From NCBI RefSeq assembly GCF_000022265.1, contig NC_011979.1, positions 2,760,001-2,792,000 on the forward strand: a DNA stretch of 32,000 nucleotides. Reading direction: 5' to 3'. This DNA comes from Geotalea daltonii FRC-32 (GTDB taxonomy: Bacteria > Desulfobacterota > Desulfuromonadia > Geobacterales > Geobacteraceae). Positions within the stretch are counted from its first letter, which is position 1; each line of letters starts with the position of its first letter. The position numbers were made by a program, and so were the translations under genes. The notes below the pieces were generated by a model, which was not told the origin of the DNA, did no database searches, and worked only from the letters and a program-made list of their open reading frames with translations. Below, piece by piece: positions 7,693 through 14,419 of this stretch.

Positions 7693-8949
7693 ATGATGGC
7701 GGCAAATCTCAAGGAACTGGTCCAGCGCTACAAGGCGGACCCGGAGTCGGTCTATAACACCTGGTTTATCGATAACGAGGCACGGATGAAGGCGTTTCGG
7801 TCCATCCGGCGCGGCGTGACGGAGGTGATTGAGGCTATTAAAGCCGGAACATTCGGCAATGATTTCAAAGGCTCACCATTGGAGTTCGTCCTCACCTGCA
7901 TCACCGAGCAAAAGCAGGTCTTCGAGGGGGCCGCGCACCCGTTCTATTGGAAACCAAAACTGCGCATTCCCGACATCTACGAGAACGAGGAGAACAAGGC
8001 CGCCTTCGGCCGCTTCCTGGAAAGCTGCCTGTCCTGCTCCACTGCCGATCGCATCATCCGCGAAATCCTCACCCTCGACGACTGCCGCATCAAGGGACTC
8101 GGCCCCGCCGTCGCCAACATCCTCTACTTTCTCCATCCGACCCACATGCCCCCCTTTAACACAGCCATGCTTAATGGCTTTAATACCCTCTTTGCCGACA
8201 AGAAACCCCTCGGCTCCTGGACTGCCTATCTGGAGATGCGCGAGGCGATTATTCACGCCAATGAAGAACTGCAGCCTGCGCTCTCGAAGGACCTGGGGGC
8301 GATCTCCGGGTTGCTCTTTGATGTGGGGGTAGGCAAGATCGCCTTGGCAGGTAATTTCCAGACGGCGCTGGAGTTTGACCGGGCAAAGCTTGAGAAGGCG
8401 CTAAAGAAGCGACATGACGATGTGCGCAAGGCCCAGGAAGAGGAAAATTCCCATCTGGAGATGCAGTTTACCCTGACACGAATGGGGCGTGACCTTGGTT
8501 ATGACGTGTGGGTGGCCGCCAACGACCGGACCCGCAGCTTGGCAGGCATTAGCCTGCAGTCGCTGACCCTGCCGGAGCTGCCGCTGCTGGAGATGGCGTC
8601 CGAGACCCTCAAGACGGTATCCCTGATCGACGTCATCTGGATAAACCGACTGAGCCGCCAGATCGAGTGTGCCTTCGAGATCGAGAAGAGCACTTCCATT
8701 TACTCAGGAATGCTGCGGCTGCTCGATCTGGCCTCGTCCTTGGGGGACCGGAAGTACGACTTCTTCCTCGTCGCGCCGGATAACCGGGAAAAGGAGATCC
8801 TTGCCCAACTGCAACGGCCTGCCTTTCGTAATCTCGGGAGTGTGGCGTTCCGGTATCTGCTCTTTTCTGATGTTTCCTGTAACTGTGAGGCGATGGGAAG
8901 GTTTGGGGATGATTGGCGGGTTTTGTTGAAGGTGGCGCGGGGGGAATAA
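7693..8949 (+). CDS. Hypothetical protein with a C-terminal PD-(D/E)xK restriction-endonuclease-like domain and an N-terminal HhH-like region
   Basis: 418 aa. The C-terminal part reads E(MQF)..GYDVWVAAND..IDVIW..x12..AFEIEKST..YSGMLRLLDL, a D...ExK arrangement. The N-terminal part contains IKGLGPAVANILYFLHP, resembling helix-hairpin-helix segments of OGG-fold/DNA-binding proteins. No methyltransferase gene is adjacent. Confidence 0.6.
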   Translation: MMAANLKELVQRYKADPESVYNTWFIDNEARMKAFRSIRRGVTEVIEAIKAGTFGNDFKGSPLEFVLTCITEQKQVFEGAAHPFYWKPKLRIPDIYENEENKAAFGRFLESCLSCSTADRIIREILTLDDCRIKGLGPAVANILYFLHPTHMPPFNTAMLNGFNTLFADKKPLGSWTAYLEMREAIIHANEELQPALSKDLGAISGLLFDVGVGKIALAGNFQTALEFDRAKLEKALKKRHDDVRKAQEEENSHLEMQFTLTRMGRDLGYDVWVAANDRTRSLAGISLQSLTLPELPLLEMASETLKTVSLIDVIWINRLSRQIECAFEIEKSTSIYSGMLRLLDLASSLGDRKYDFFLVAPDNREKEILAQLQRPAFRNLGSVAFRYLLFSDVSCNCEAMGRFGDDWRVLLKVARGE

Positions 8950-8994: not shown

Positions 8995-9075
8995 ATGAAA
9001 TGGTACGTTGAATTTTTGAATGGTGAAGTCGAGAGCGAGTTTCTCTCTCTTCCGAAGGACATGCAGGCGCGGTGA
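8995..9075 (+). pseudogene. HigB/Gp49-like (RelE superfamily) toxin stub, 26 codons
   Basis: MKWYVEFLNGEVESEFLSLPKDMQAR* matches the N-terminus typical of Gp49/DUF891 toxins (MKW.VEFL....E...LP.DM.AR), which are normally ~100-110 aa. The reading frame stops at 9073-9075, 2 nt before the antitoxin ATG. Confidence 0.65.
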
Positions 9076-9077
9076 AC

Positions 9078-9410
9078 ATGGGAAGAAAATTGAATCAAGT
9101 CAAGCAGGAGCTGATGGCGGATGAGGAATTCAGACGGGAATACGATGCGCTGGAGGAGGAATTCTCAGTTGCTGCGCAGTTAATAGAAGCCCGGACGAAG
9201 GCAAACCTGACGCAGGAACAGGTGGCCCGGCGGATGGGGACGACGCAGTCAGTGGTGGCGCGGTTGGAATCGGGTCATCCATTGCCGAGTCTTCGGACGC
9301 TGCGCAAGTATGCATCTGCGGTAGGGAGCAGGGTGGAGATACGGTTGGTGGGGAAGCAGGTGAATGCCGTACATGAGTCGGCGGAGGGATACGGCGCCGA
9401 CGGCAACTGA
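9078..9410 (+). CDS. XRE-family helix-turn-helix antitoxin (HigA-like)
   Basis: 110 aa. The HTH reads LTQEQVARRMGTTQSVVARLESG. The gene sits downstream of the Gp49-like stub. The last ~13 codons are supplied by the dispersed repeat at 9369-9404. Confidence 0.8.
   Translation: MGRKLNQVKQELMADEEFRREYDALEEEFSVAAQLIEARTKANLTQEQVARRMGTTQSVVARLESGHPLPSLRTLRKYASAVGSRVEIRLVGKQVNAVHESAEGYGADGN
9369..9404. repeat. 36-nt dispersed repeat, copy 2
   Basis: GTACATGAGTCGGCGGAGGgatacGGCgCCGACGGC matches 3410-3445 at 32/36 positions and lies inside the 3' end of the antitoxin ORF. Confidence 0.7.
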
Positions 9411-9503
9411 AACCGATGGTTTAACTGTAAGAAGGGTTTAGCTTCGAGAATGGCAGAAAGGTAACCTGACACCGTTGTTTTCCCCTTGACTTTACTTATC
9501 ATG

Positions 9504-9537
9504 GATGTCCCCAGAATTCTGATGTCCCCGGAATTCT
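9504..9537. repeat. 2 x 17-bp tandem direct repeat
   Basis: GATGTCCCCAGAATTCT (9504-9520) is followed by GATGTCCCCGGAATTCT (9521-9537). ATGTCCCC recurs at 9750-9757. Confidence 0.85.
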
Positions 9538-9607: not shown

Positions 9608-9826
9608 ATCAACTATTATTAAGTTGTTTTGTTTATTCCCGGAGGATGGGATGGAATCCATTTTGGGTTATGTCGATTGGGAAGAACGCTTAAGTAAACT
9701 TCGGGCTGATGAACGTGCTTTTTGTTGATAGGAACAATTAATCCCTACCATGTCCCCCTCGGAATATTGAACAGTGGCCGTCGGAGAAATCTGACAGCAG
9801 AAGATACAGCCTATTTCGGAGCCCTT

Positions 9827-11848
9827 ATGAAAAACCTAGATGTTCTTATCACGACCCCCGGAATCAAAAAAACATTAAAGGGAATGACTGTCGAGAAGGC
9901 TATAGCTGAGTATATATGGAATGGATTTGATGCTAGTGCAACTAGTATTGAATTAGAATACCACACTAATGAGTTCGGTGCGGTTACTGAGATATCAGTA
10001 AAAGACAATGGCTATGGTGTTCAGTATGAAAATCTTGATAATAAGTTTGGCGTATTTATGTTCTCTGAAAAAGAAGCCCTCCACACAGGCAAACGCTTTT
10101 TATCAGGCATAAGAGGTAAAAGAGGCGTTGGTCGTCTGTCATTTTTTCACTTCTCACGGCACGCTAAATGGGAAACAACTTACCAAACAAAAACAGGAAA
10201 GTTGCACTTCGATATAAATGTCACTTCAGATAATTTGGTAAAGTACGCTGCATCACCAATTGAACCAACTAATGATGGCATAGGAACTAAAGTTGTTTTG
10301 CAGGAGGTAAGTGACGTATACGATACTTCGTTTAAAGAGGAAATAATACCTTATCTGTGTAAAGAATTTTGTTGGTATTTGAAGTTAAACAAACAATATT
10401 CAATAAAGGTCAATGGTGTGGAAATAGATTATTCTAAGTTAATAGCTGAAGAAGATAGTGCTTCTTTCATATTTGACGAATCAAAAACATTGTTTTCTAT
10501 AGATTACGTCCGTTGGTCAGAAAAACCAAATGATGAATACTCTCGTTATTATTGTAAATCTTTGAATGAAGAGGAAAAGCTCACCAATCCAACAACATTA
10601 AACAATAAGGGCGATGAATTTCATCACAGTGTATATATTACGAGCAGCTTCTTCGAAAAGTTTGCACCTGTAAGAACAGATGGTGAGGATCAAGTTAGTT
10701 TTGAGTTCAGCAACAATATGAGCAGTCCAGAATTTAGATATATCATGTCCGAAGTATCAGACTTTTTGAGAAAAAAACGAAAACCCTTTCTCAAAAAATA
10801 TACTGATAAACTCATTGCTGATTATGAACAAGAAGGTGTTCTACCCAAGCTAAAAAATGCGAATGATTGGGAAGTAGTGAAGCATAAAGTTCTCGAAGAC
10901 ACCATCCGAGAATTGTATCAGGTCCAACCAAGGATATTTACTAGACAGAATGTGATTCAAAAAAAGGTCTTTGTCAGGTTTCTGGAACTATTAATGGATA
11001 GCCATGAATTTGAAAGGGTCTTTGATATTATAAAGGAGGTTGTAGAGCTTGAACCAACTGAACGAAAGCAACTTGCAGAGATATTAAAGACCTCAAGATT
11101 GTCTTCTGTAATACGAACGATTGAGCTTATTCACAACCGATATAAAGCAGTGTCGGGGTTAAAAAAATTAGTATTTGACGAAGATCTTAAAGCTAAAGAG
11201 GTCCCACATATACAAATTTTTATGGAAAATAATTATTGGTTAATCGGAGAACAGTACAATATTATCACTGCTGCTGAACCGACATTTGAGGAAGCGCTTA
11301 GAAGATATAACTATCTTCTTACAAAGGAAGATAAAAAAATTAAGATCAATCACCCAAACAAGAATTGTCAAATGGACCTTTTCCTTATCAGGCAAGATTA
11401 CGACGGCGACATTATAAAGAATGTTGTCTTGGAGCTTAAGCACCCAAATGTAAGACTAGGTAAAAAACAACTCGATCAGATTGACAAATATTTTGAGGTC
11501 ATATTAAAACAACCTGAATTTAATGCAAGTAACATGACTTGGGAATTTCATTTGATCGGGAATAGATTGGATGCAAGTGAATACATAGAGAGACAATATA
11601 AAAATGCGTCACTTCATGGAGAAAGATGCTTAGTTTATAAAGATGATAGATATAAGATATACGTAAAAACTTGGAGTGAAATATTCAACACTTTTGAACT
11701 TAGGCACAAATTCCTGAATGACAGACTGGAAATAGCACGAGATACGGTAGCGCGAGATACAATAGGTAAAAATGCAGATGACATAGTAAAAACTGCAAGC
11801 ATGAACCTTGTACCGATGGAGTCTAGTGTCTTTATTGCTACTGCCTAA
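9827..11848 (+). CDS. GHKL (Bergerat-fold) ATPase fused to a C-terminal Shedu/DUF4263-like PD-(D/E)xK nuclease domain
   Basis: The GHKL motifs are an N-box AEYIWNGFDASA, G1 DNGYG, G2 GKRGVGRLSFF and G3 GIGTKVVL. The C-terminal part reads HIQIFMENNYWLIGEQY...QMDLFLIRQD...NVVLELKHPNVRLGKKQLDQIDKY, a D...ExK arrangement with a Q..Y tail. The ORF is open from TTG 9722. ATG 9827 is preferred because GGAG lies 5 nt upstream and the AT-rich composition begins there. The gene uses strongly AT-rich codons, unlike its neighbours. Confidence 0.75.
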   Translation: MKNLDVLITTPGIKKTLKGMTVEKAIAEYIWNGFDASATSIELEYHTNEFGAVTEISVKDNGYGVQYENLDNKFGVFMFSEKEALHTGKRFLSGIRGKRGVGRLSFFHFSRHAKWETTYQTKTGKLHFDINVTSDNLVKYAASPIEPTNDGIGTKVVLQEVSDVYDTSFKEEIIPYLCKEFCWYLKLNKQYSIKVNGVEIDYSKLIAEEDSASFIFDESKTLFSIDYVRWSEKPNDEYSRYYCKSLNEEEKLTNPTTLNNKGDEFHHSVYITSSFFEKFAPVRTDGEDQVSFEFSNNMSSPEFRYIMSEVSDFLRKKRKPFLKKYTDKLIADYEQEGVLPKLKNANDWEVVKHKVLEDTIRELYQVQPRIFTRQNVIQKKVFVRFLELLMDSHEFERVFDIIKEVVELEPTERKQLAEILKTSRLSSVIRTIELIHNRYKAVSGLKKLVFDEDLKAKEVPHIQIFMENNYWLIGEQYNIITAAEPTFEEALRRYNYLLTKEDKKIKINHPNKNCQMDLFLIRQDYDGDIIKNVVLELKHPNVRLGKKQLDQIDKYFEVILKQPEFNASNMTWEFHLIGNRLDASEYIERQYKNASLHGERCLVYKDDRYKIYVKTWSEIFNTFELRHKFLNDRLEIARDTVARDTIGKNADDIVKTASMNLVPMESSVFIATA

Positions 11849-11865
11849 AATCTTACGAATAAGTA

Positions 11866-11925
11866 GGGGTCGCGTCTCAACTTCTGACGTTGTCAAGAGT
11901 TGAGACGCGACCCCTTTGTGTTTGG
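11866..11925 (+). terminator. Intrinsic terminator of the GHKL-nuclease gene
   Basis: A perfect 17-bp stem, GGGGTCGCGTCTCAACT (11866-11882) with AGTTGAGACGCGACCCC (11898-11914), has a 15-nt loop and is followed by TTTGTGTTT. Confidence 0.8.
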
Positions 11926-12042
11926 GGAGTAATAGGGGACGTTGTTTGTTTGTCGATTTGTACTTACTAACTAGCTGAAATTATGTCTATGAAGTCAACT
12001 GCATCTCGATGCGAAAAATATGTTAGCAAACCAGCAAACAAC

Positions 12043-12095
12043 GTCCCTGTCCCCTTTCCGTCCCCGTCCCCTTTCCCGTCCCCGTCCCCTTTCCG
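12043..12095. repeat. C-rich tandem repeat (GTCCCCTTTCC(C)GTCCCC x ~3); G-runs on the minus strand
   Basis: The sequence reads gtccct gtcccctttcc gtcccc gtcccctttccc gtcccc gtcccctttcc. That gives at least 7 runs of C3-4 separated by 2-5 nt. Confidence 0.9.
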
Positions 12096-12112
12096 TTGTC
12101 TGTGTGAATCTA

Positions 12113-12256: not shown

Positions 12257-12462
12257 GCATTAACCTCAAGCACGTTGGCTAACAGGACACTGTGTTTACC
12301 TGCCTGTGCCCCTTCAATTTTATCTCACCCTATCAGCAACGTTGCCTTGGAAAATGGTGCAAAATCAGTAATCTTGTATACTTTGGCTATTCGAGACGTT
12401 GGTAAGTCAACAGGATCAAAGTTATTGTACTACCTTCTATATTGGACTGCAAAGGGGCAACC

Positions 12463-13425
12463 ATGCCAATAAAGGGTCAGGTGCAAACCAGCGCGATAAT
12501 AAAACTAATTATCCTGTCAGTGATCGTTTTGGTGGTCACGCTTCTCCATTTCATGACTCCCACAGAGCCTCATATCTATCATCAACTGCACATAATTTTC
12601 AGAAAACTTTATTTCCTACCTCCAGTGATGGCCGGTGCCTGGTTTGGCTTGCGCGGTGCGTTGATTACTACGCTCAGCATTAGCATCCTCTTCTCTCTTC
12701 ATGCTTTTCTTGATTGGCCAGGCAATTACATGGAGCAGGCAAATCAACTGGGTGAACTGGCGGGCTTCTGGGTGGTCGGATTGGTGCCGGGATATCTCTT
12801 TGATCGCCAGAAAAAGCTGTTGATTGACGTTGCCAATGCCAACGAAGAAACCTTGATCGCCTTGGTATCTGCCCTTGATCTGAGGGAACATAATACTCAA
12901 ATGCATTCCCGGCGAGTGCGGGAATATGCGCTGCTCATTGCCAGGCAGTTAGGGATTGATGAACGAAGATCTGTCAATATCGGCTTCGGGGCTCTTCTTC
13001 ATGATGTGGGAAAGATTGCCGTCCCAGACCATATTCTTCTTAAACAGGGAAGGCTTACGGAAGACGAATGGAAAGAGATGCGCAAGCACCCAGAAGCTGG
13101 CTATGGCATCATAAAGAAAATCAACTTTTTAAAGGAAGCGGCCGAAATTGCCTATACACACCATGAACGATTCGATGGGCAAGGGTATCCGCGTGGGCTG
13201 CGGGGAGAAGAGATACCATACGGCGCTCGTATCTTTATGGTGGCTGATGTCTTTGACGCCCTTAGTTCCACCCGGTCTTACCATACAGCTTCTACCTACG
13301 AAGAATGCACAAAAATGATCAAGGAGGAGAGTGGCAAACATTTTGATTCGAAAGTAGTGGGCGCCTTTCTCCTGATCGATCGGAAGCAAATAGAAGCAAT
13401 CCAGACCGAATACGCCGATGGTTGA
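12463..13425 (+). CDS. Membrane-anchored HD-GYP domain phosphodiesterase (c-di-GMP)
   Basis: HDVGKIAVP, HPEAGY and HHERFDGQGYPRGL motifs follow about four N-terminal TM segments. ATG 12463 is preferred over TTG 12442. Confidence 0.88.
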   Translation: MPIKGQVQTSAIIKLIILSVIVLVVTLLHFMTPTEPHIYHQLHIIFRKLYFLPPVMAGAWFGLRGALITTLSISILFSLHAFLDWPGNYMEQANQLGELAGFWVVGLVPGYLFDRQKKLLIDVANANEETLIALVSALDLREHNTQMHSRRVREYALLIARQLGIDERRSVNIGFGALLHDVGKIAVPDHILLKQGRLTEDEWKEMRKHPEAGYGIIKKINFLKEAAEIAYTHHERFDGQGYPRGLRGEEIPYGARIFMVADVFDALSSTRSYHTASTYEECTKMIKEESGKHFDSKVVGAFLLIDRKQIEAIQTEYADG

Positions 13426-14173: not shown

Positions 14174-14419
14174 ATGCGCCGAAAGATTTGCGCCATAGGC
14201 AACAGCCGAGGGGTGTCGCTTCCCAACGAGGCCCTGGAAAAGCTGAAACTGGCGGTGGGATCGGAAGTGGATGTGCAGGTGGATGAGGAACATGGACGGA
14301 TCGTGATTGAACCGGTCAAAGCGGCGTCTTATGCGGAAGGGGGGGATGAAGCCTTTGCCTCTCAGGTCAATGATTTCATCGAGCAGTACAAACCGGCGTT
14401 GAAAAAGCTCGCCGAATGA
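14174..14419 (+). CDS. AbrB/MazE/SpoVT-family antitoxin (Phd-type partner of Doc)
   Basis: 81 aa. It reads ICAIGNSRGVSLPNEALEKLKLAVGSEVDVQVDEEHGRIVIEPV, a swapped-hairpin AbrB fold signature. The RBS is AAAGGAG. Its stop overlaps the ATG of the Doc stub. Confidence 0.8.
   Translation: MRRKICAIGNSRGVSLPNEALEKLKLAVGSEVDVQVDEEHGRIVIEPVKAASYAEGGDEAFASQVNDFIEQYKPALKKLAE

What the first reader, a model, noticed from the sequence alone, without database searches (positions are those of the whole stretch)
9827..11848. Single AT-rich gene fusing a complete GHKL ATPase to a Shedu/DUF4263-like PD-(D/E)xK nuclease: candidate stand-alone defence system
The N-terminal ~200 aa contain every Bergerat-fold motif (N-box EYIWNGFDASA, DNGYG, GKRGVGRLSFF, GIGTKVVL), as in MutL/MORC/Hsp90-type ATPases. 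After a ~300-aa helical middle region, the C-terminus reads ENNYWLIGEQY...DLFLIRQD...VLELKHPNVRLGKKQLDQIDKY. This is the layout I associate with the Shedu SduA nuclease domain: a (h)npWL(f/i)GexY helix, a catalytic D, ExK, then Q..Y. Prokaryotic GHKL/MORC-like ATPases associated with restriction-type nucleases are an established comparative-genomics theme. Shedu nucleases are known to carry variable N-terminal sensor domains. I do not know of any experimental characterisation of a GHKL-regulated Shedu-type nuclease. The gene is compositionally foreign and has its own terminator. It sits among toxin-antitoxin debris and another nuclease gene, which is a typical defence-island setting.
Basis: partly seen in the sequence, partly recalled or inferred. 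Interest (0 to 1): 0.8.

Follow-up and report, generated by a model that had tools for sequence, protein, structure and literature searches.

The report
GHKL ATPase–nuclease fusion defence gene
This AT-rich gene of Geotalea daltonii encodes one protein joining an ATP-driven clamp (GHKL ATPase) to a DNA-cutting domain, a class named paraMORC3 in 2008 and shown to block phages in Vibrio cholerae in 2025, so it is a new untested member of a known kind.

Summary
Window 9827-11848 (+) is a 673-aa ORF identical to Geob_2519 of Geotalea daltonii FRC-32. It has 35% GC against 55% around it and ends in a strong terminator hairpin. All quoted motifs are present and invariant in homologues. The N-terminus is a real GHKL ATPase (Pfam HATPase_c_3, 96.7 bits against a cutoff of 25). 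A MutL/Hsp90-like middle domain follows it. The C-terminus is a PD-(D/E)xK nuclease with E475, D517, E536-x-K538 and Q551-xxx-Y555.

The architecture is already known as paraMORC3 (Iyer 2008) and Shedu type I-D (Gu 2023/2025). One example, VcSduA of V. cholerae, was shown in 2025 to defend against phage, and this needed both its ATPase and nuclease residues.

Geob_2519 belongs to a separate, very divergent sister family. BLASTP finds no similarity to VcSduA. hhalign gives 95% probability, 17% identity and collinear catalytic motifs.

The specific Shedu/DUF4263 label is weakly supported. SduA_C is below threshold, HSDR_N_2 matches more often, and no solved Shedu structure was recovered.

Context is defence-island-like and no partner gene is universal. 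Verdict: new member of a known kind, of modest interest.

The parts
9827..11848 (+). CDS of the 673-aa GHKL ATPase-nuclease fusion (Geob_2519 / WP_012647599.1), stop codon included
   Evidence: ORF. It is 100% identical to P0001. The start position agrees with homologues.
9818..9821 (+). GGAG, probable ribosome-binding site 5 nt before the ATG
   Evidence: Read directly from the sequence. This is an inference only.
9884..10267 (+). Core of the GHKL (Bergerat-fold) ATPase domain, aa 20-147. The full domain spans roughly aa 8-190.
   Evidence: Pfam HATPase_c_3, E=1.6e-27, 96.7 bits against a cutoff of 25. Foldseek matches MLH1, MutL and Hsp90/TRAP1 at E down to 1.7e-12.
9908..9931 (+). GHKL motif I (N-box), E28-YIW-N32-GF-D35
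   Evidence: N32 and D35 are invariant and E28 is >=90% conserved. E28 occupies the same motif position as VcSduA E27, whose E27A mutant loses defence.
10004..10018 (+). GHKL motif II, D60-N-G62-Y-G64 (DxGxG)
   Evidence: Invariant in 32 homologues. It aligns to the VcSduA-family DNGCG in hhalign.
10115..10132 (+). GHKL motif III, G97-KR-G100-V-G102 (glycine-rich end of the ATP lid)
   Evidence: Invariant. The preceding lid, aa 79-100, has low pLDDT, as expected for a mobile lid.
10283..10288 (+). GHKL motif IV, G153-T154
   Evidence: Invariant.
10400..10666 (+). Beta-rich transducer (S5-like) domain, about aa 192-280, including the invariant T256, N259, K261 and D263
   Evidence: DSSP strands at 192-272 in the model, with pLDDT mostly 80-93. 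Foldseek alignments of 312-360 columns to MutL LN40, MLH1 and PMS2 N-terminal fragments (GHKL plus transducer) have TM-scores of 0.41-0.49 normalised by the target.
10727..11176 (+). Helical middle/linker region, about aa 301-450
   Evidence: Helices at 301-450 in the model. There is weak sequence similarity of aa 282-435 to the Hsp82 middle domain (E=0.02-0.04). Hsp90/TRAP1 Foldseek alignments run to 400-445 columns.
11189..11746 (+). PD-(D/E)xK nuclease domain, about aa 455-640
   Evidence: The C-terminal model has pLDDT 79.7 and pTM 0.73, with the canonical topology. The top Foldseek hits are MspJI, McrC, Cap4, EcoO109I, Can2 and FokI, all weak. HSDR_N_2 matches 23 of 24 family members and SduA_C matches 5 of 24, all below threshold.
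11249..11251 (+). Nuclease motif I, E475 (in W471-LI-G474-E475-QY)
   Evidence: Invariant across the wide alignment A4 at 26-65% identity. It aligns to VcSduA-family E498.
11375..11377 (+). Nuclease motif II, D517
   Evidence: Invariant. It aligns to VcSduA-family D527.
11432..11440 (+). Nuclease motif III, E536-L-K538, followed by the invariant P540
   Evidence: Invariant. K538 aligns to VcSduA K557, whose K557A mutant loses defence.
11477..11491 (+). Nuclease motif IV, Q551-IDK-Y555 (QxxxY)
   Evidence: Invariant. It aligns to VcSduA-family Q575/Y579.
11865..11925 (+). Intrinsic terminator: a 24-nt-arm hairpin followed by TTTGTGTTT, starting 17 nt after the stop codon
   Evidence: Inverted repeat I1. 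RNA fold dG -47.5 kcal/mol, z = -9.93, with 0 of 200 shuffles folding as well.

Best explanation
Geob_2519 is a horizontally acquired, single-gene nucleic-acid defence effector of the paraMORC3 / GHKL-nuclease class.

**Architecture (shown here):** one polypeptide carries, in order, a catalytically intact GHKL ATPase, a MutL/Hsp90-like transducer and helical middle region, and a PD-(D/E)xK nuclease with a complete E...D...ExK...QxxxY active site.

**Mechanism (inferred):** this rests on the established behaviour of GHKL+transducer engines (MutL, Topo VI/II, Hsp90, MORC) and on VcSduA.
1. ATP binding drives dimerisation of the two N-terminal GHKL domains.
2. This closes a clamp formed by the middle domains around DNA.
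3. The conformational change brings the two C-terminal nuclease domains into a cleavage-competent arrangement, so foreign (phage or plasmid) DNA is cut.
4. ATP hydrolysis resets the enzyme.

The ATPase therefore acts as the gate or sensor and the nuclease as the effector. No partner gene is required in G. daltonii.
For: **Domains and motifs**
- HATPase_c_3 scores E=1.6e-27.
- All Bergerat and nuclease motifs are invariant in 32 homologues. The nuclease set is still invariant at 26% identity.
- The full-length model matches MLH1, MutL and Hsp90/TRAP1 over 312-446 columns.
- The C-terminal model has the PD-(D/E)xK topology, and its best, though weak, structural neighbours are restriction or defence nucleases.

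**Link to a validated system**
- hhalign of this family against the VcSduA family gives 95.2% probability and E=2.7e-8 over 466 collinear columns. E475/D517/E536/K538/Q551/Y555 fall on E498/D527/E555/K557/Q575/Y579.
- VcSduA E27A and K557A abolish phage defence, and protection holds at all MOIs tested.

**Defence-type genomics**
- GC is 0.35 against 0.55 in the window. The gene is AT-richer than its flanks in 37 of 37 loci examined.
- Distribution is patchy across many bacterial phyla and some Archaea.
- Neighbours include RES-Xre, Abi_2, HicB, type I and type IIG RM, PLD-SNF2, TIR/SEFIR, a reverse transcriptase, an integrase and IS21.
- Distant full-length relatives sit on conjugative plasmids and in two Pasteurella phages.

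**Stand-alone status**
- No neighbour family is shared by more than 11 of 78 loci.
- The gene has its own terminator.

**Literature:** paraMORC3 and Shedu type 1D are described.
Against: - There is no experimental result for this family. The only validated relative shares 17% profile-level identity and no BLASTP similarity.
- The nuclease domain alone aligns only weakly to VcSduA (hhalign E=0.0028, probability 10.8%).
- Dimerisation, clamp closure and the coupling of ATP to cleavage are all inferred. No multimer model could be run.
- No defence-specific HMM recognises the protein (PADLOC). The same library also misses VcSduA, so this silence is uninformative.
- In about 13% of loci the gene is embedded in a type I RM operon. 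Distant relatives abut type ISP RM or helicase genes. So 'stand-alone' may not hold for the whole family.
- I found no promoter for the gene.
Confidence: 0.72

Rival explanations
1. It is a true Shedu (SduA) in the strict sense. On this reading the C-terminal domain is a DUF4263 nuclease that tetramerises through the nuclease domains as in B. cereus and E. coli SduA, senses free DNA ends, and is held inactive by its N-terminal (here GHKL) domain.
For: - The motif I-IV grammar is present. The motif I-to-II spacing is 42, against 43-45 in EcSduA and BcShedu.
- Weak, in-register hits to two independent Shedu models appear in some family members. Pfam SduA_C hits 5 of 24; in P0021 residues 458-539 match profile positions 5-55 at 16.4 bits. 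PADLOC SduA hits P0021 at E=0.006.
- Gu et al. report that PSI-BLAST from the BcShedu DUF4263 domain reaches proteins with HATPase_c_3 plus a middle domain.
- The remote relative VcSduA is published as a Shedu.
Against: - Geob_2519 has no PF14082 hit at E<=1. None of 10 divergent members or 4 distant relatives hits it.
- HSDR_N_2 is the more consistent match, in 23 of 24 members, and passes its threshold in the Pasteurella phage homologue.
- Three profile searches of the PDB returned 0 hits at E<=10. That library should include the EcSduA entries 8PS4/8PS5 reported.
- No Shedu structure is in the top 50 Foldseek hits.
- The motif III-to-IV spacing is 13 with QxxxY, against 29 in classical Shedu.
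- Adams et al. found a tetramer model of VcSduA poorly supported and a dimer well supported.
Confidence: 0.3
2. It is an accessory subunit of a restriction-modification system, not an autonomous system. It would work with type I or type ISP R-M enzymes or SFII helicases, looping or processing DNA between recognition and cleavage sites, as Iyer et al. proposed for paraMORCs. In G. daltonii it would work with the adjacent REase-like gene and HTH regulator.
For: - About 10-11 of 78 loci have the order hsdR-[gene]-hsdS-(AlbA_2)-hsdM on one strand, with median gaps of 11 and 32 nt.
- Type I RM lies next to the gene in L004 and L005.
- The Phaeobacter plasmid homologue overlaps a type ISP R-M gene by 4 nt. 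The Bradyrhizobium homologue follows a DEAD/DEAH helicase.
- In the window, a type II REase-like ORF (7693-8949) and a C-protein/XRE-like HTH (9072-9410) lie upstream on the same strand.
- Iyer 2008 links paraMORCs to R-M systems.
Against: - Most loci (about 87%) have no R-M neighbour, and no partner is universal.
- Iyer et al. themselves note that nuclease-bearing paraMORC3s often stand alone.
- VcSduA works alone when cloned.
- In the window the gene differs by 20 GC points from the REase and HTH genes and has its own terminator, which argues for separate acquisition.
- R-M operons are common landing sites for unrelated defence genes (own knowledge).
Confidence: 0.15
3. It is a housekeeping-type DNA repair or recombination enzyme: a MutL-like ATPase-endonuclease recruited for mismatch or damage processing, not for defence.
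For: - The layout of GHKL, transducer and C-terminal endonuclease mirrors MutL/PMS2. MLH1, MutL and PMS2 are among the best structural matches for the N-terminal part.
- Iyer et al. raise occasional recruitment of paraMORCs to repair.
Against: - The MutL equivalog model scores 17.9 bits against a cutoff of 180.
- The gene is compositionally foreign, patchily distributed, and carried on plasmids and phages.
- No MutS-like or other repair partner is conserved nearby.
- The nuclease is a PD-(D/E)xK restriction-type domain, not the MutL metal-site endonuclease.
Confidence: 0.04

Closest known systems
VcSduA of Vibrio cholerae WASA lineage (A1552VC_00276, AWB73059.1; Adams et al., Nat Microbiol 2025, PMC12137116)
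   Same: - Both are single 673-aa polypeptides with an N-terminal GHKL ATPase, a clamp-like middle region and a C-terminal PD-(D/E)xK nuclease.
- The two family profiles align collinearly (95% probability, E=2.7e-8), with all nuclease motifs in register.
- The ExxxN motif sits at the same position (E27/N31 in VcSduA, E28/N32 here).
- VcSduA acts as a stand-alone gene, and the setting here looks the same.
   Different: - There is no BLASTP similarity and only 17% identity at profile level.
- VcSduA's GHKL is too divergent for Pfam to detect. Geob_2519 is a strong HATPase_c_3 match.
- Nuclease motif spacings differ: 29/28/18 in VcSduA (counted on the orthologue P0274) against 42/19/13 here.
- G. 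daltonii and the genera I searched from this family (Geobacter, Brevibacillus, Alkalihalobacillus, Dehalococcoides) are absent from the published 543-hit VcSduA table.
- VcSduA is validated experimentally. This family is not.
paraMORC3 family (Iyer, Abhiman & Aravind 2008, PMC2292703)
   Same: The family is defined by a GHKL with intact motifs, an S5 domain and an extra C-terminal RE-fold nuclease with E-D-ExK and RecB-like affinities. Its distribution is sporadic and laterally mobile, and the nuclease-bearing members are often stand-alone. Geob_2519 shows every one of these features.
   Different: This is a purely computational family whose member list I could not inspect, because the supplement is not held. 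Formal inclusion of Geob_2519 is therefore inferred. The 2008 paper proposed an R-M-linked DNA-looping role, not autonomous defence.
Classical Shedu: B. cereus SduA (Gu et al.) and E. coli SduA (Loeff et al., PDB 8PS4/8PS5)
   Same: Both are single-protein systems with a C-terminal PD-(D/E)xK nuclease (motifs E, D, ExK, Q/E) controlled by a variable N-terminal domain. The motif I-to-II spacing is similar. Gu et al. list HATPase_c_3 N-terminal domains as Shedu type 1D.
   Different: - PF14082 and the PADLOC SduA model do not reach threshold.
- I recovered no sequence or structure link to solved Shedu.
- The motif III-to-IV spacing is 13 with QxxxY, against 29.
- Classical Shedu is a nuclease-domain tetramer that senses DNA ends through small N-terminal clamps. 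Here a roughly 450-aa ATP-driven GHKL module is expected to dimerise.
N-terminal nuclease domain of type I restriction R subunits (Pfam HSDR_N_2 / HSDR_N; RecB-family D...ExK...QxxxY)
   Same: HSDR_N_2 is the most consistent Pfam match to the C-terminal domain. It hits 23 of 24 members and reaches 27.7 bits (cutoff 25) in the Pasteurella phage homologue. The QxxxY motif lies 13 residues after the ExK lysine, much as in EcoR124I HsdR (about 12; own knowledge).
   Different: The match is below threshold for Geob_2519 itself (16.5-18.2 bits against 25). In HsdR the nuclease is N-terminal to an SF2 translocase. Here it is C-terminal to a GHKL ATPase.
MutL / MLH1 / PMS2 and Hsp90/TRAP1 (GHKL + transducer/middle-domain engines)
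   Same: These are the best structural matches for the N-terminal 320-440 residues. They share the principle of an ATP-driven N-terminal dimerisation clamp. MutL/PMS2 also carry a C-terminal endonuclease.
   Different: The MutL equivalog HMM is far below cutoff. The nuclease fold is different. The genomics are those of mobile defence cargo.

Membership tests
GHKL (Bergerat-fold) ATPase superfamily | Pfam HATPase_c_3 or HATPase_c match above the gathering threshold | tested here: met
   PF13589 scores 96.7 bits against a cutoff of 25, E=1.6e-27, aa 20-147.
GHKL (Bergerat-fold) ATPase superfamily | Motifs I (ExxxNxxD), II (DxGxG), III (GxxGxG) and IV (GT) intact | tested here: met
   N32, D35, D60, G62, G64, G97, G100, G102, G153 and T154 are invariant, and E28 is >=90% conserved, in 32 homologues.
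GHKL (Bergerat-fold) ATPase superfamily | ATP binding and hydrolysis | not testable with these tools
   This needs biochemistry.
paraMORC3 (Iyer et al. 2008) | GHKL followed by an S5-fold transducer domain | tested here: met
   The model has a beta-rich domain at aa 192-280. Foldseek aligns 312-360 columns to MutL LN40, MLH1 and PMS2 N-terminal fragments, with TM-scores of 0.41-0.49 normalised by the target. I did not verify the S5 fold separately.
paraMORC3 (Iyer et al. 2008) | Extra conserved C-terminal RE-fold nuclease with E-D-ExK motifs and RecB-like affinity | tested here: met
   E475, D517 and E536-x-K538 plus Q551xxxY555 are invariant. The model has the PD-(D/E)xK topology. HSDR_N_2, PDDEXK_9, PDDEXK_3 and VRR_NUC give weak hits.
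paraMORC3 (Iyer et al. 2008) | Sporadic, laterally mobile distribution, with nuclease-bearing members often stand-alone | tested here: met
   488 species representatives across many bacterial phyla and some Archaea carry a copy. No neighbour is universal. The gene is AT-richer than its flanks in 37 of 37 loci.
paraMORC3 (Iyer et al. 2008) | Listed among the authors' family members | not testable with these tools
   The supplementary member list is not held.
Shedu (SduA / DUF4263) | PF14082 (SduA_C, formerly DUF4263) match above the 27-bit gathering threshold | tested here: not met
   Geob_2519 has no hit at E<=1. Of 24 family members, 5 hit below threshold, with best E=9e-4. P0021 scores 16.4 bits. 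None of 10 divergent members or 4 distant relatives hits. Control: the published GHKL-Shedu VcSduA also gets no PF14082 hit with this Pfam copy.
Shedu (SduA / DUF4263) | Recognised by a defence-system SduA model (PADLOC) | tested here: not met
   PADLOC returns only MzaB at E=0.057. P0021 hits SduA weakly at E=0.0063. Control: VcSduA orthologues also get 0 PADLOC hits, so the test has low power.
Shedu (SduA / DUF4263) | Nuclease motifs I (E), II (D), III (ExK) and IV (Q/E) with the spacing of characterised Shedu | tested here: inconclusive
   All motifs are present and invariant. I-to-II is 42 against 43-45, and II-to-III is 19 against 14-15. III-to-IV is 13 (QxxxY) against 29 in BcShedu and EcSduA.
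Shedu (SduA / DUF4263) | Sequence or structural similarity to solved Shedu nuclease domains | tested here: not met
   Profile searches of the PDB with A2 and A4 gave 0 hits at E<=10. Foldseek with the C-terminal model gave no hit at E<=1e-3 and no Shedu entry in the top 50. I could not run a direct hhalign against a DUF4263 alignment, because no genuine Shedu sequence was obtainable.
Shedu (SduA / DUF4263) | Single-gene system with a variable N-terminal regulatory domain and a C-terminal nuclease | tested here: met
   Architecture. Stand-alone contexts.
Shedu (SduA / DUF4263) | Homotetramer formed through the nuclease domains, and anti-phage activity | not testable with these tools
   No multimer prediction or experiment was available.
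VcSduA family (Adams et al. 2025) | Detectable homology over the full architecture, with catalytic residues E27 and K557 conserved | tested here: met
   hhalign of A1 against A3 gives 95.2% probability and E=2.7e-8 over 466 columns, and K538 aligns with K557. E28/N32 occupy the same motif position as E27/N31. BLASTP alone finds nothing.
VcSduA family (Adams et al. 2025) | Recovered by the authors' VcSduA MacSyFinder model (543 hits) | tested here: not met
   There are no occurrences of daltonii, Geotalea, Geobacter, WP_012647599, Brevibacillus, Alkalihalobacillus or Dehalococcoides in the hit table. Caveat: I could not confirm that the G. daltonii genome was in their search set.
HSDR_N_2 (PF13588, type I R-subunit N-terminal nuclease) | Pfam match above the 25-bit gathering threshold | tested here: inconclusive
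   Geob_2519 scores 16.5-18.2 bits. 23 of 24 family members hit below threshold, with best E=8.4e-6. The distant Pasteurella phage homologue passes at 27.7 bits.
MutL (DNA mismatch repair) | NCBIfam/TIGR00585 equivalog score | tested here: not met
   17.9 bits against a cutoff of 180, covering the N-box region only.

The most novel reading that the evidence does not exclude
The HATPase_c_3-type family containing Geob_2519 may be a lineage mechanistically distinct from both classical Shedu and VcSduA. It has about 1,200 clusters at 50% identity and none has been tested. On this reading it is a dimeric, ATP-gated clamp nuclease whose catalytic domain is of the HsdR/RecB QxxxY type. In some lineages it would be functionally wired into type I or type ISP restriction-modification operons (hsdR-X-hsdS-hsdM). 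There it would act as a back-up or co-processing nuclease that reads out the state of the R-M enzyme, by analogy with PrrC and EcoprrI. It would not be an autonomous DNA-end sensor.
Probability: 0.15. Interest if true: 0.55.

Novelty: new member of a known kind. Interest (0 to 1): 0.3.

Why it matters
**For the scan.** The result turns a 'candidate new defence system' into a correctly filed one. GHKL-nuclease single-protein systems were predicted in 2008, were folded into the Shedu census in 2023, and had one member validated in 2025.

**What is still useful**
- Geob_2519 represents a large, phylogenetically very broad sister family that no defence-finder model used here recognises and that nobody appears to have tested.
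- Its GHKL domain is far more canonical than VcSduA's, which could make it a better biochemical model for how an ATP-driven clamp gates a restriction-type nuclease.
- The evidence here questions whether the 'Shedu' label, defined by DUF4263, really fits these fusions. The nuclease looks nearer to HsdR/RecB-type domains.
- A subset embedded in type I R-M operons hints at functional coupling that could be tested.

None of this would overturn current understanding.

Tried and rejected
1. **Sequence link to solved Shedu.** HMM profiles of the C-terminal domain (A2), of a broadened superfamily alignment (A4) and of the VcSduA family (A3) each gave 0 PDB hits at E<=10.
2. **Structural link to Shedu.** The full-length model was dominated by GHKL hits. 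The separate C-terminal model gave only weak generic PD-(D/E)xK hits and no Shedu entry.
3. **Transitive link through a whole-library profile search.** All 150 listed representatives belong to the same GHKL fusion family or are fragments. The distant tail is not shown.
4. **Nuclease module with swapped N-terminal partners.** P0246 (HTH + N6-methylase + this nuclease domain) looked like support. I rejected it: P0246 is a singleton on a 2.8-kb low-coverage contig, and all its relatives share only the N-terminal 72% with other C-termini. It is a probable assembly chimera or one-off recombinant.
5. **Published homologue lists.**
   - Adams et al. Table 7 is truncated in the PMC copy.
   - The bioRxiv copy lists 543 hits without G. 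daltonii, but its sequences are cut at 400 aa.
   - The Gu et al. supplement is not held.
   - The Iyer supplement is not held.
6. **Bridging through divergent members and plasmid or phage relatives.** None reached SduA_C.
7. **A conserved partner gene.** Clustering 833 neighbour ORFs from 78 loci found none that is universal.
8. **Island borders and associated RNA.** I found no convincing target-site duplication or terminal inverted repeats, no tRNA in the window and no Rfam family above threshold.
9. **Promoter scan.** It found no more sites than shuffled sequence would give.

Full report
**1.

The window carries an ORF at 9722-11848 (+). The ATG at 9827 gives a 673-aa protein. Its N-terminus coincides with that of 31 aligned homologues, and a GGAG lies 5 nt upstream. 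The protein is identical to Geob_2519 / ACM20870.1 / WP_012647599.1 of Geotalea daltonii FRC-32, which is annotated only as 'hypothetical' or 'ATP-binding protein'.

The key residues are invariant across homologues of 44-60% identity.

The gene is 35.2% GC against 55.2% for the rest of the window. Seventeen nucleotides after the stop codon there is a hairpin with 24-nt arms followed by a T-rich tract. It folds at -47.5 kcal/mol with z = -9.9. So the 'own terminator' claim is right, although the simple scan missed it.

**2. Domain anatomy**

- **GHKL ATPase.** Pfam places HATPase_c_3 on aa 20-147 at E=1.6e-27, with 96.7 bits against a cutoff of 25.
- **Transducer and middle region.** An AlphaFold2 model built on 32 sequences (mean pLDDT 75) shows three parts. 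These are the GHKL domain with a disordered ATP lid (aa 79-100), a beta-rich domain (about aa 192-280) and a helical region (about aa 301-450).
- **Structural matches for the N-terminal part.** Foldseek against the PDB returns MLH1, TRAP1/Hsp90, MutL and PMS2. Alignments run to 312-446 columns at E down to 1.7e-12. That covers the GHKL, the transducer and the middle domain, as in other GHL engines. phmmer also finds a faint Hsp82 middle-domain resemblance for aa 282-435.
The '~300-aa helical middle' is really a transducer-like beta domain followed by about 150 aa of helix.
- **Nuclease.** The C-terminal 238 aa modelled alone (pLDDT 79.7, pTM 0.73) have the classical PD-(D/E)xK alpha-beta-beta-beta-alpha-beta core. 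D517 lies just before beta2. E536 and K538 lie at the end of beta3. Q551 and Y555 lie on the following helix.
- **Structural matches for the nuclease.** None is significant (best E=6e-3). The leading hits are nevertheless restriction or defence nucleases of this fold: MspJI, McrC, Cap4, EcoO109I, Can2 and FokI.

**3. Which nuclease family?**

- **Pfam.** Geob_2519 has no SduA_C/DUF4263 (PF14082) hit at E<=1. It has a sub-threshold HSDR_N_2 hit.
- **Across the family.** Of 24 members, HSDR_N_2 matches 23 (best E=8e-6) and SduA_C matches 5 (best E=9e-4).
- **Register of the Shedu hits.** The one SduA_C match I could see is in the correct register, running from the helix before motif I to motif III. 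It scores only 16.4 bits against a cutoff of 27. PADLOC's SduA model gives a similarly faint hit to that same member. PADLOC gives nothing for Geob_2519.
- **More distant relatives.** Ten divergent family members and four much more distant relatives never reach SduA_C. The Pasteurella phage relative passes the HSDR_N_2 threshold at 27.7 bits.
- **PDB searches.** Three profile searches of the PDB returned nothing at E<=10. The library should hold the EcSduA entries 8PS4/8PS5 reported.
- **Motif spacing.** The table shows one agreement and one clear difference.

| Spacing | Geob_2519 | EcSduA / BcShedu |
|---|---|---|
| Motif I to II | 42 | 43 / 45 |
| Motif III to IV | 13 (with QxxxY) | 29 / 29 |

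The short spacing with QxxxY is the RecB/HsdR signature (own knowledge of EcoR124I). It also agrees with Iyer et al.'s remark that the paraMORC3 nuclease recovers RecB-family nucleases.

- **Controls.** The published GHKL-Shedu VcSduA also gets no PF14082 hit and no PADLOC hit with these libraries. The negative results therefore have limited power.

I conclude that the domain is certainly PD-(D/E)xK. Its strict DUF4263 membership is unproven and, on present evidence, less likely than not.

**4. The class is already known, and one member has been tested**

- Iyer, Abhiman and Aravind (2008) defined paraMORC3. It is a GHKL plus S5 plus a C-terminal RE-fold nuclease with E-D-ExK. It is sporadically distributed, and the nuclease-bearing members are often stand-alone.
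- Gu et al. (2023/2025) listed HATPase_c_3 plus an Hsp90-like middle domain among the enzymatic N-terminal domains of 'type 1D' Shedu.
- Adams et al. (2025) showed that V. cholerae VcSduA (GHKL plus PD-(D/E)xK, 673 aa) protects E. coli against T1-like phages and V. cholerae against phage X29. E27A and K557A abolish protection. Protection holds at all MOIs tested. A dimer model is well supported and a tetramer model is not.

**5. Relationship to VcSduA**

I recovered VcSduA's first 400 residues from the bioRxiv supplement. With that fragment I retrieved full-length orthologues.

- BLASTP between Geob_2519 and a 90%-identical VcSduA orthologue finds nothing beyond the GxxGxG motif.
- Profile-profile comparison of the two family alignments gives 95.2% probability and E=2.7e-8 over 466 collinear columns at 17% identity. 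The alignment runs from GHKL motif II to the end of the nuclease core.
- In that alignment E475/D517/E536/K538/Q551/Y555 fall on E498/D527/E555/K557/Q575/Y579.
- The nuclease domain alone gives the same register but only weakly, at E=0.0028.
- G. daltonii and the genera I searched from this family are absent from the 543-hit VcSduA table.

Geob_2519 is therefore a remote sister family with the same architecture. It is not a VcSduA orthologue.

**6. Size, spread and context of the family**

- **Size.** There are 845+ proteins at E<=1e-3 among the 8,000 candidates scored. The C-terminal profile finds 1,197 clusters at 50% identity.
- **Spread.** Copies occur in 488 species-representative genomes. 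These span Bacteroidota, Chloroflexota, Firmicutes, Pseudomonadota, Cyanobacteria, Patescibacteria, Acidobacteriota and some Archaea, all at about 38-48% identity.
- **Distant subfamily.** A further full-length subfamily at 24-26% identity (E to 1e-48) sits on plasmids, 14 of 47 typed as conjugative. It also occurs in two Pasteurella phages, where it lies like a moron among the tail genes.
- **Invariant core.** Across all of this divergence the invariant C-terminal residues are the catalytic set plus a few aromatics and one arginine.
- **Composition.** The gene is AT-richer than its flanks in 37 of 37 loci examined, with a median of -7 GC points and a minimum of -29.
- **Neighbours.** They include RES-Xre, Abi_2, HicB, type I and type IIG R-M, PLD-SNF2, NYN, TIR/SEFIR, HEPN, a reverse transcriptase, an integrase and IS21.
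- **No universal partner.** Clustering 833 flanking ORFs from 78 loci found none that is universal.
- **R-M-embedded subset.** About 10-11 loci, mostly Bacteroidota, have the gene inside a type I R-M operon in the order hsdR-[gene]-hsdS-(AlbA_2)-hsdM. Median gaps are 11 and 32 nt.
- **Distant relatives.** Some abut a type ISP R-M gene or a DEAD/DEAH helicase. This echoes the R-M linkage that Iyer et al. reported.

**7. Mechanism**

- **Shown here:** the domain order, intact catalytic motifs in both enzymatic domains, structural likeness of the N-terminal two-thirds to MutL/Hsp90 engines, and a mobile, defence-type genomic setting.
- **Inferred:**
  1. ATP-driven dimerisation of the GHKL domains closes a middle-domain clamp on DNA.
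  2. This licenses paired PD-(D/E)xK sites to cut foreign DNA.
  3. Hydrolysis resets the enzyme.
- The inference rests on established GHL-ATPase mechanism and on the VcSduA mutant data.
- I give this 0.72.
- The rivals are strict Shedu-type tetrameric end-sensing (0.30, and it overlaps the main model), an R-M accessory role (0.15) and a repair role (0.04).

**8. Verdict**

The sequence observation is confirmed and the domain calls are right. The 'Shedu-like' label is only weakly supported, and the claim of novelty is not supported. Geob_2519 is a new, untested member of a known kind. Interest is modest (0.3). It rests on three points:
- The family is large and invisible to the defence-finder models used here.
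- The DUF4263 assignment for GHKL fusions is questionable.
- A subset is embedded in type I R-M operons.

Noticed in passing
window 7693-8949 (+): A 418-aa ORF just upstream has no Pfam or NCBIfam hit. Its C-terminal half (aa 252-394) matches a PADLOC type II restriction-enzyme model at E=3e-9 and shows a D...EIEK motif. I saw no methyltransferase gene next to it: the upstream neighbour is a zinc alcohol dehydrogenase on the other strand. It may therefore be an orphan or modification-dependent REase.
   Followed up: partly
window 9072-9410 (+) and 9504-9537: An XRE/HTH_3 protein of 112 aa resembles antitoxins, C-proteins, CapH and RmrA. About 95 nt after it come two tandem 17-nt repeats, GATGTCCCC(A/G)GAATTCT, each containing a GAATTC palindrome. 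These could be an operator sitting between the HTH gene and the GHKL-nuclease gene. I found no toxin partner. A short reverse-strand ORF (9275-9502) begins MISKVKGKTTVSG and looks like a P-loop remnant.
   Followed up: partly
window 12042-12096: Three tandem copies of a 17-18-nt C-rich unit (CGTCCCCGTCCCCTTTCCGT) lie just downstream of the island. An 18-nt inverted repeat (11936-11953 and 12030-12047) brackets the intervening stretch. Their function is unknown.
   Followed up: no
window 14174-14419 (+): A MazE/AbrB-type antitoxin gene of 81 aa has no recognisable cognate toxin ORF next to it, so it is an orphan antitoxin. An HD-GYP-type HD_5 protein with an N-terminal membrane region lies at 12442-13425.
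   Followed up: no
L019, L020, L024, L026, L027, L028, L031, L038, L050 (and partly L010, L066, L076): In about 13% of species-representative loci, mostly Bacteroidota, the GHKL-nuclease gene is inserted inside a type I R-M operon. The order is hsdR-[gene]-hsdS-(SLFN/AlbA_2-HATPase_c_4-Fic_C protein)-hsdM, all on the same strand, with median gaps of 11 and 32 nt. This suggests co-transcription and possibly functional coupling.
   Followed up: partly
L087 4932-6890 (Pasteurella phage Pmp14) and phage Pmp3: A distant full-length homologue (25% identity) is encoded in two Pasteurella multocida phages. It lies between tail-assembly genes and the tape-measure gene, like a moron. Its nuclease domain passes the Pfam HSDR_N_2 threshold. 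It may be a phage-carried superinfection-exclusion or anti-competitor nuclease.
   Followed up: partly
L089 3929-5917 (Phaeobacter plasmid pGal_E78) and L088 (Bradyrhizobium pBBta01): Distant homologues on conjugative plasmids are translationally coupled to large upstream genes. One has a 4-nt overlap with a type ISP restriction/modification gene. The other follows a DEAD/DEAH helicase of over 1,200 aa and lies near Abi and VapBC genes. This matches the paraMORC-helicase-R-M linkage of Iyer et al.
   Followed up: partly
P0246 / L091: A 771-aa metagenomic protein joins an HTH plus N6-methylase (PglX/type IIG-like) to this family's nuclease domain. It is a singleton on a 2.8-kb contig at about 2.7x coverage, going by the cov value in its record name. 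Its many 98-100%-identical relatives carry other C-termini. It is probably an assembly chimera and should not be read as a real fusion.
   Followed up: yes
P0272-P0391 (VcSduA family): The experimentally validated VcSduA and its close relatives get no significant Pfam hit (neither HATPase nor SduA_C) and no PADLOC hit with the libraries used here. UniRef nevertheless names the V. cholerae protein 'DUF4263 domain-containing'. The defence-annotation models used here therefore miss this whole class.
   Followed up: yes
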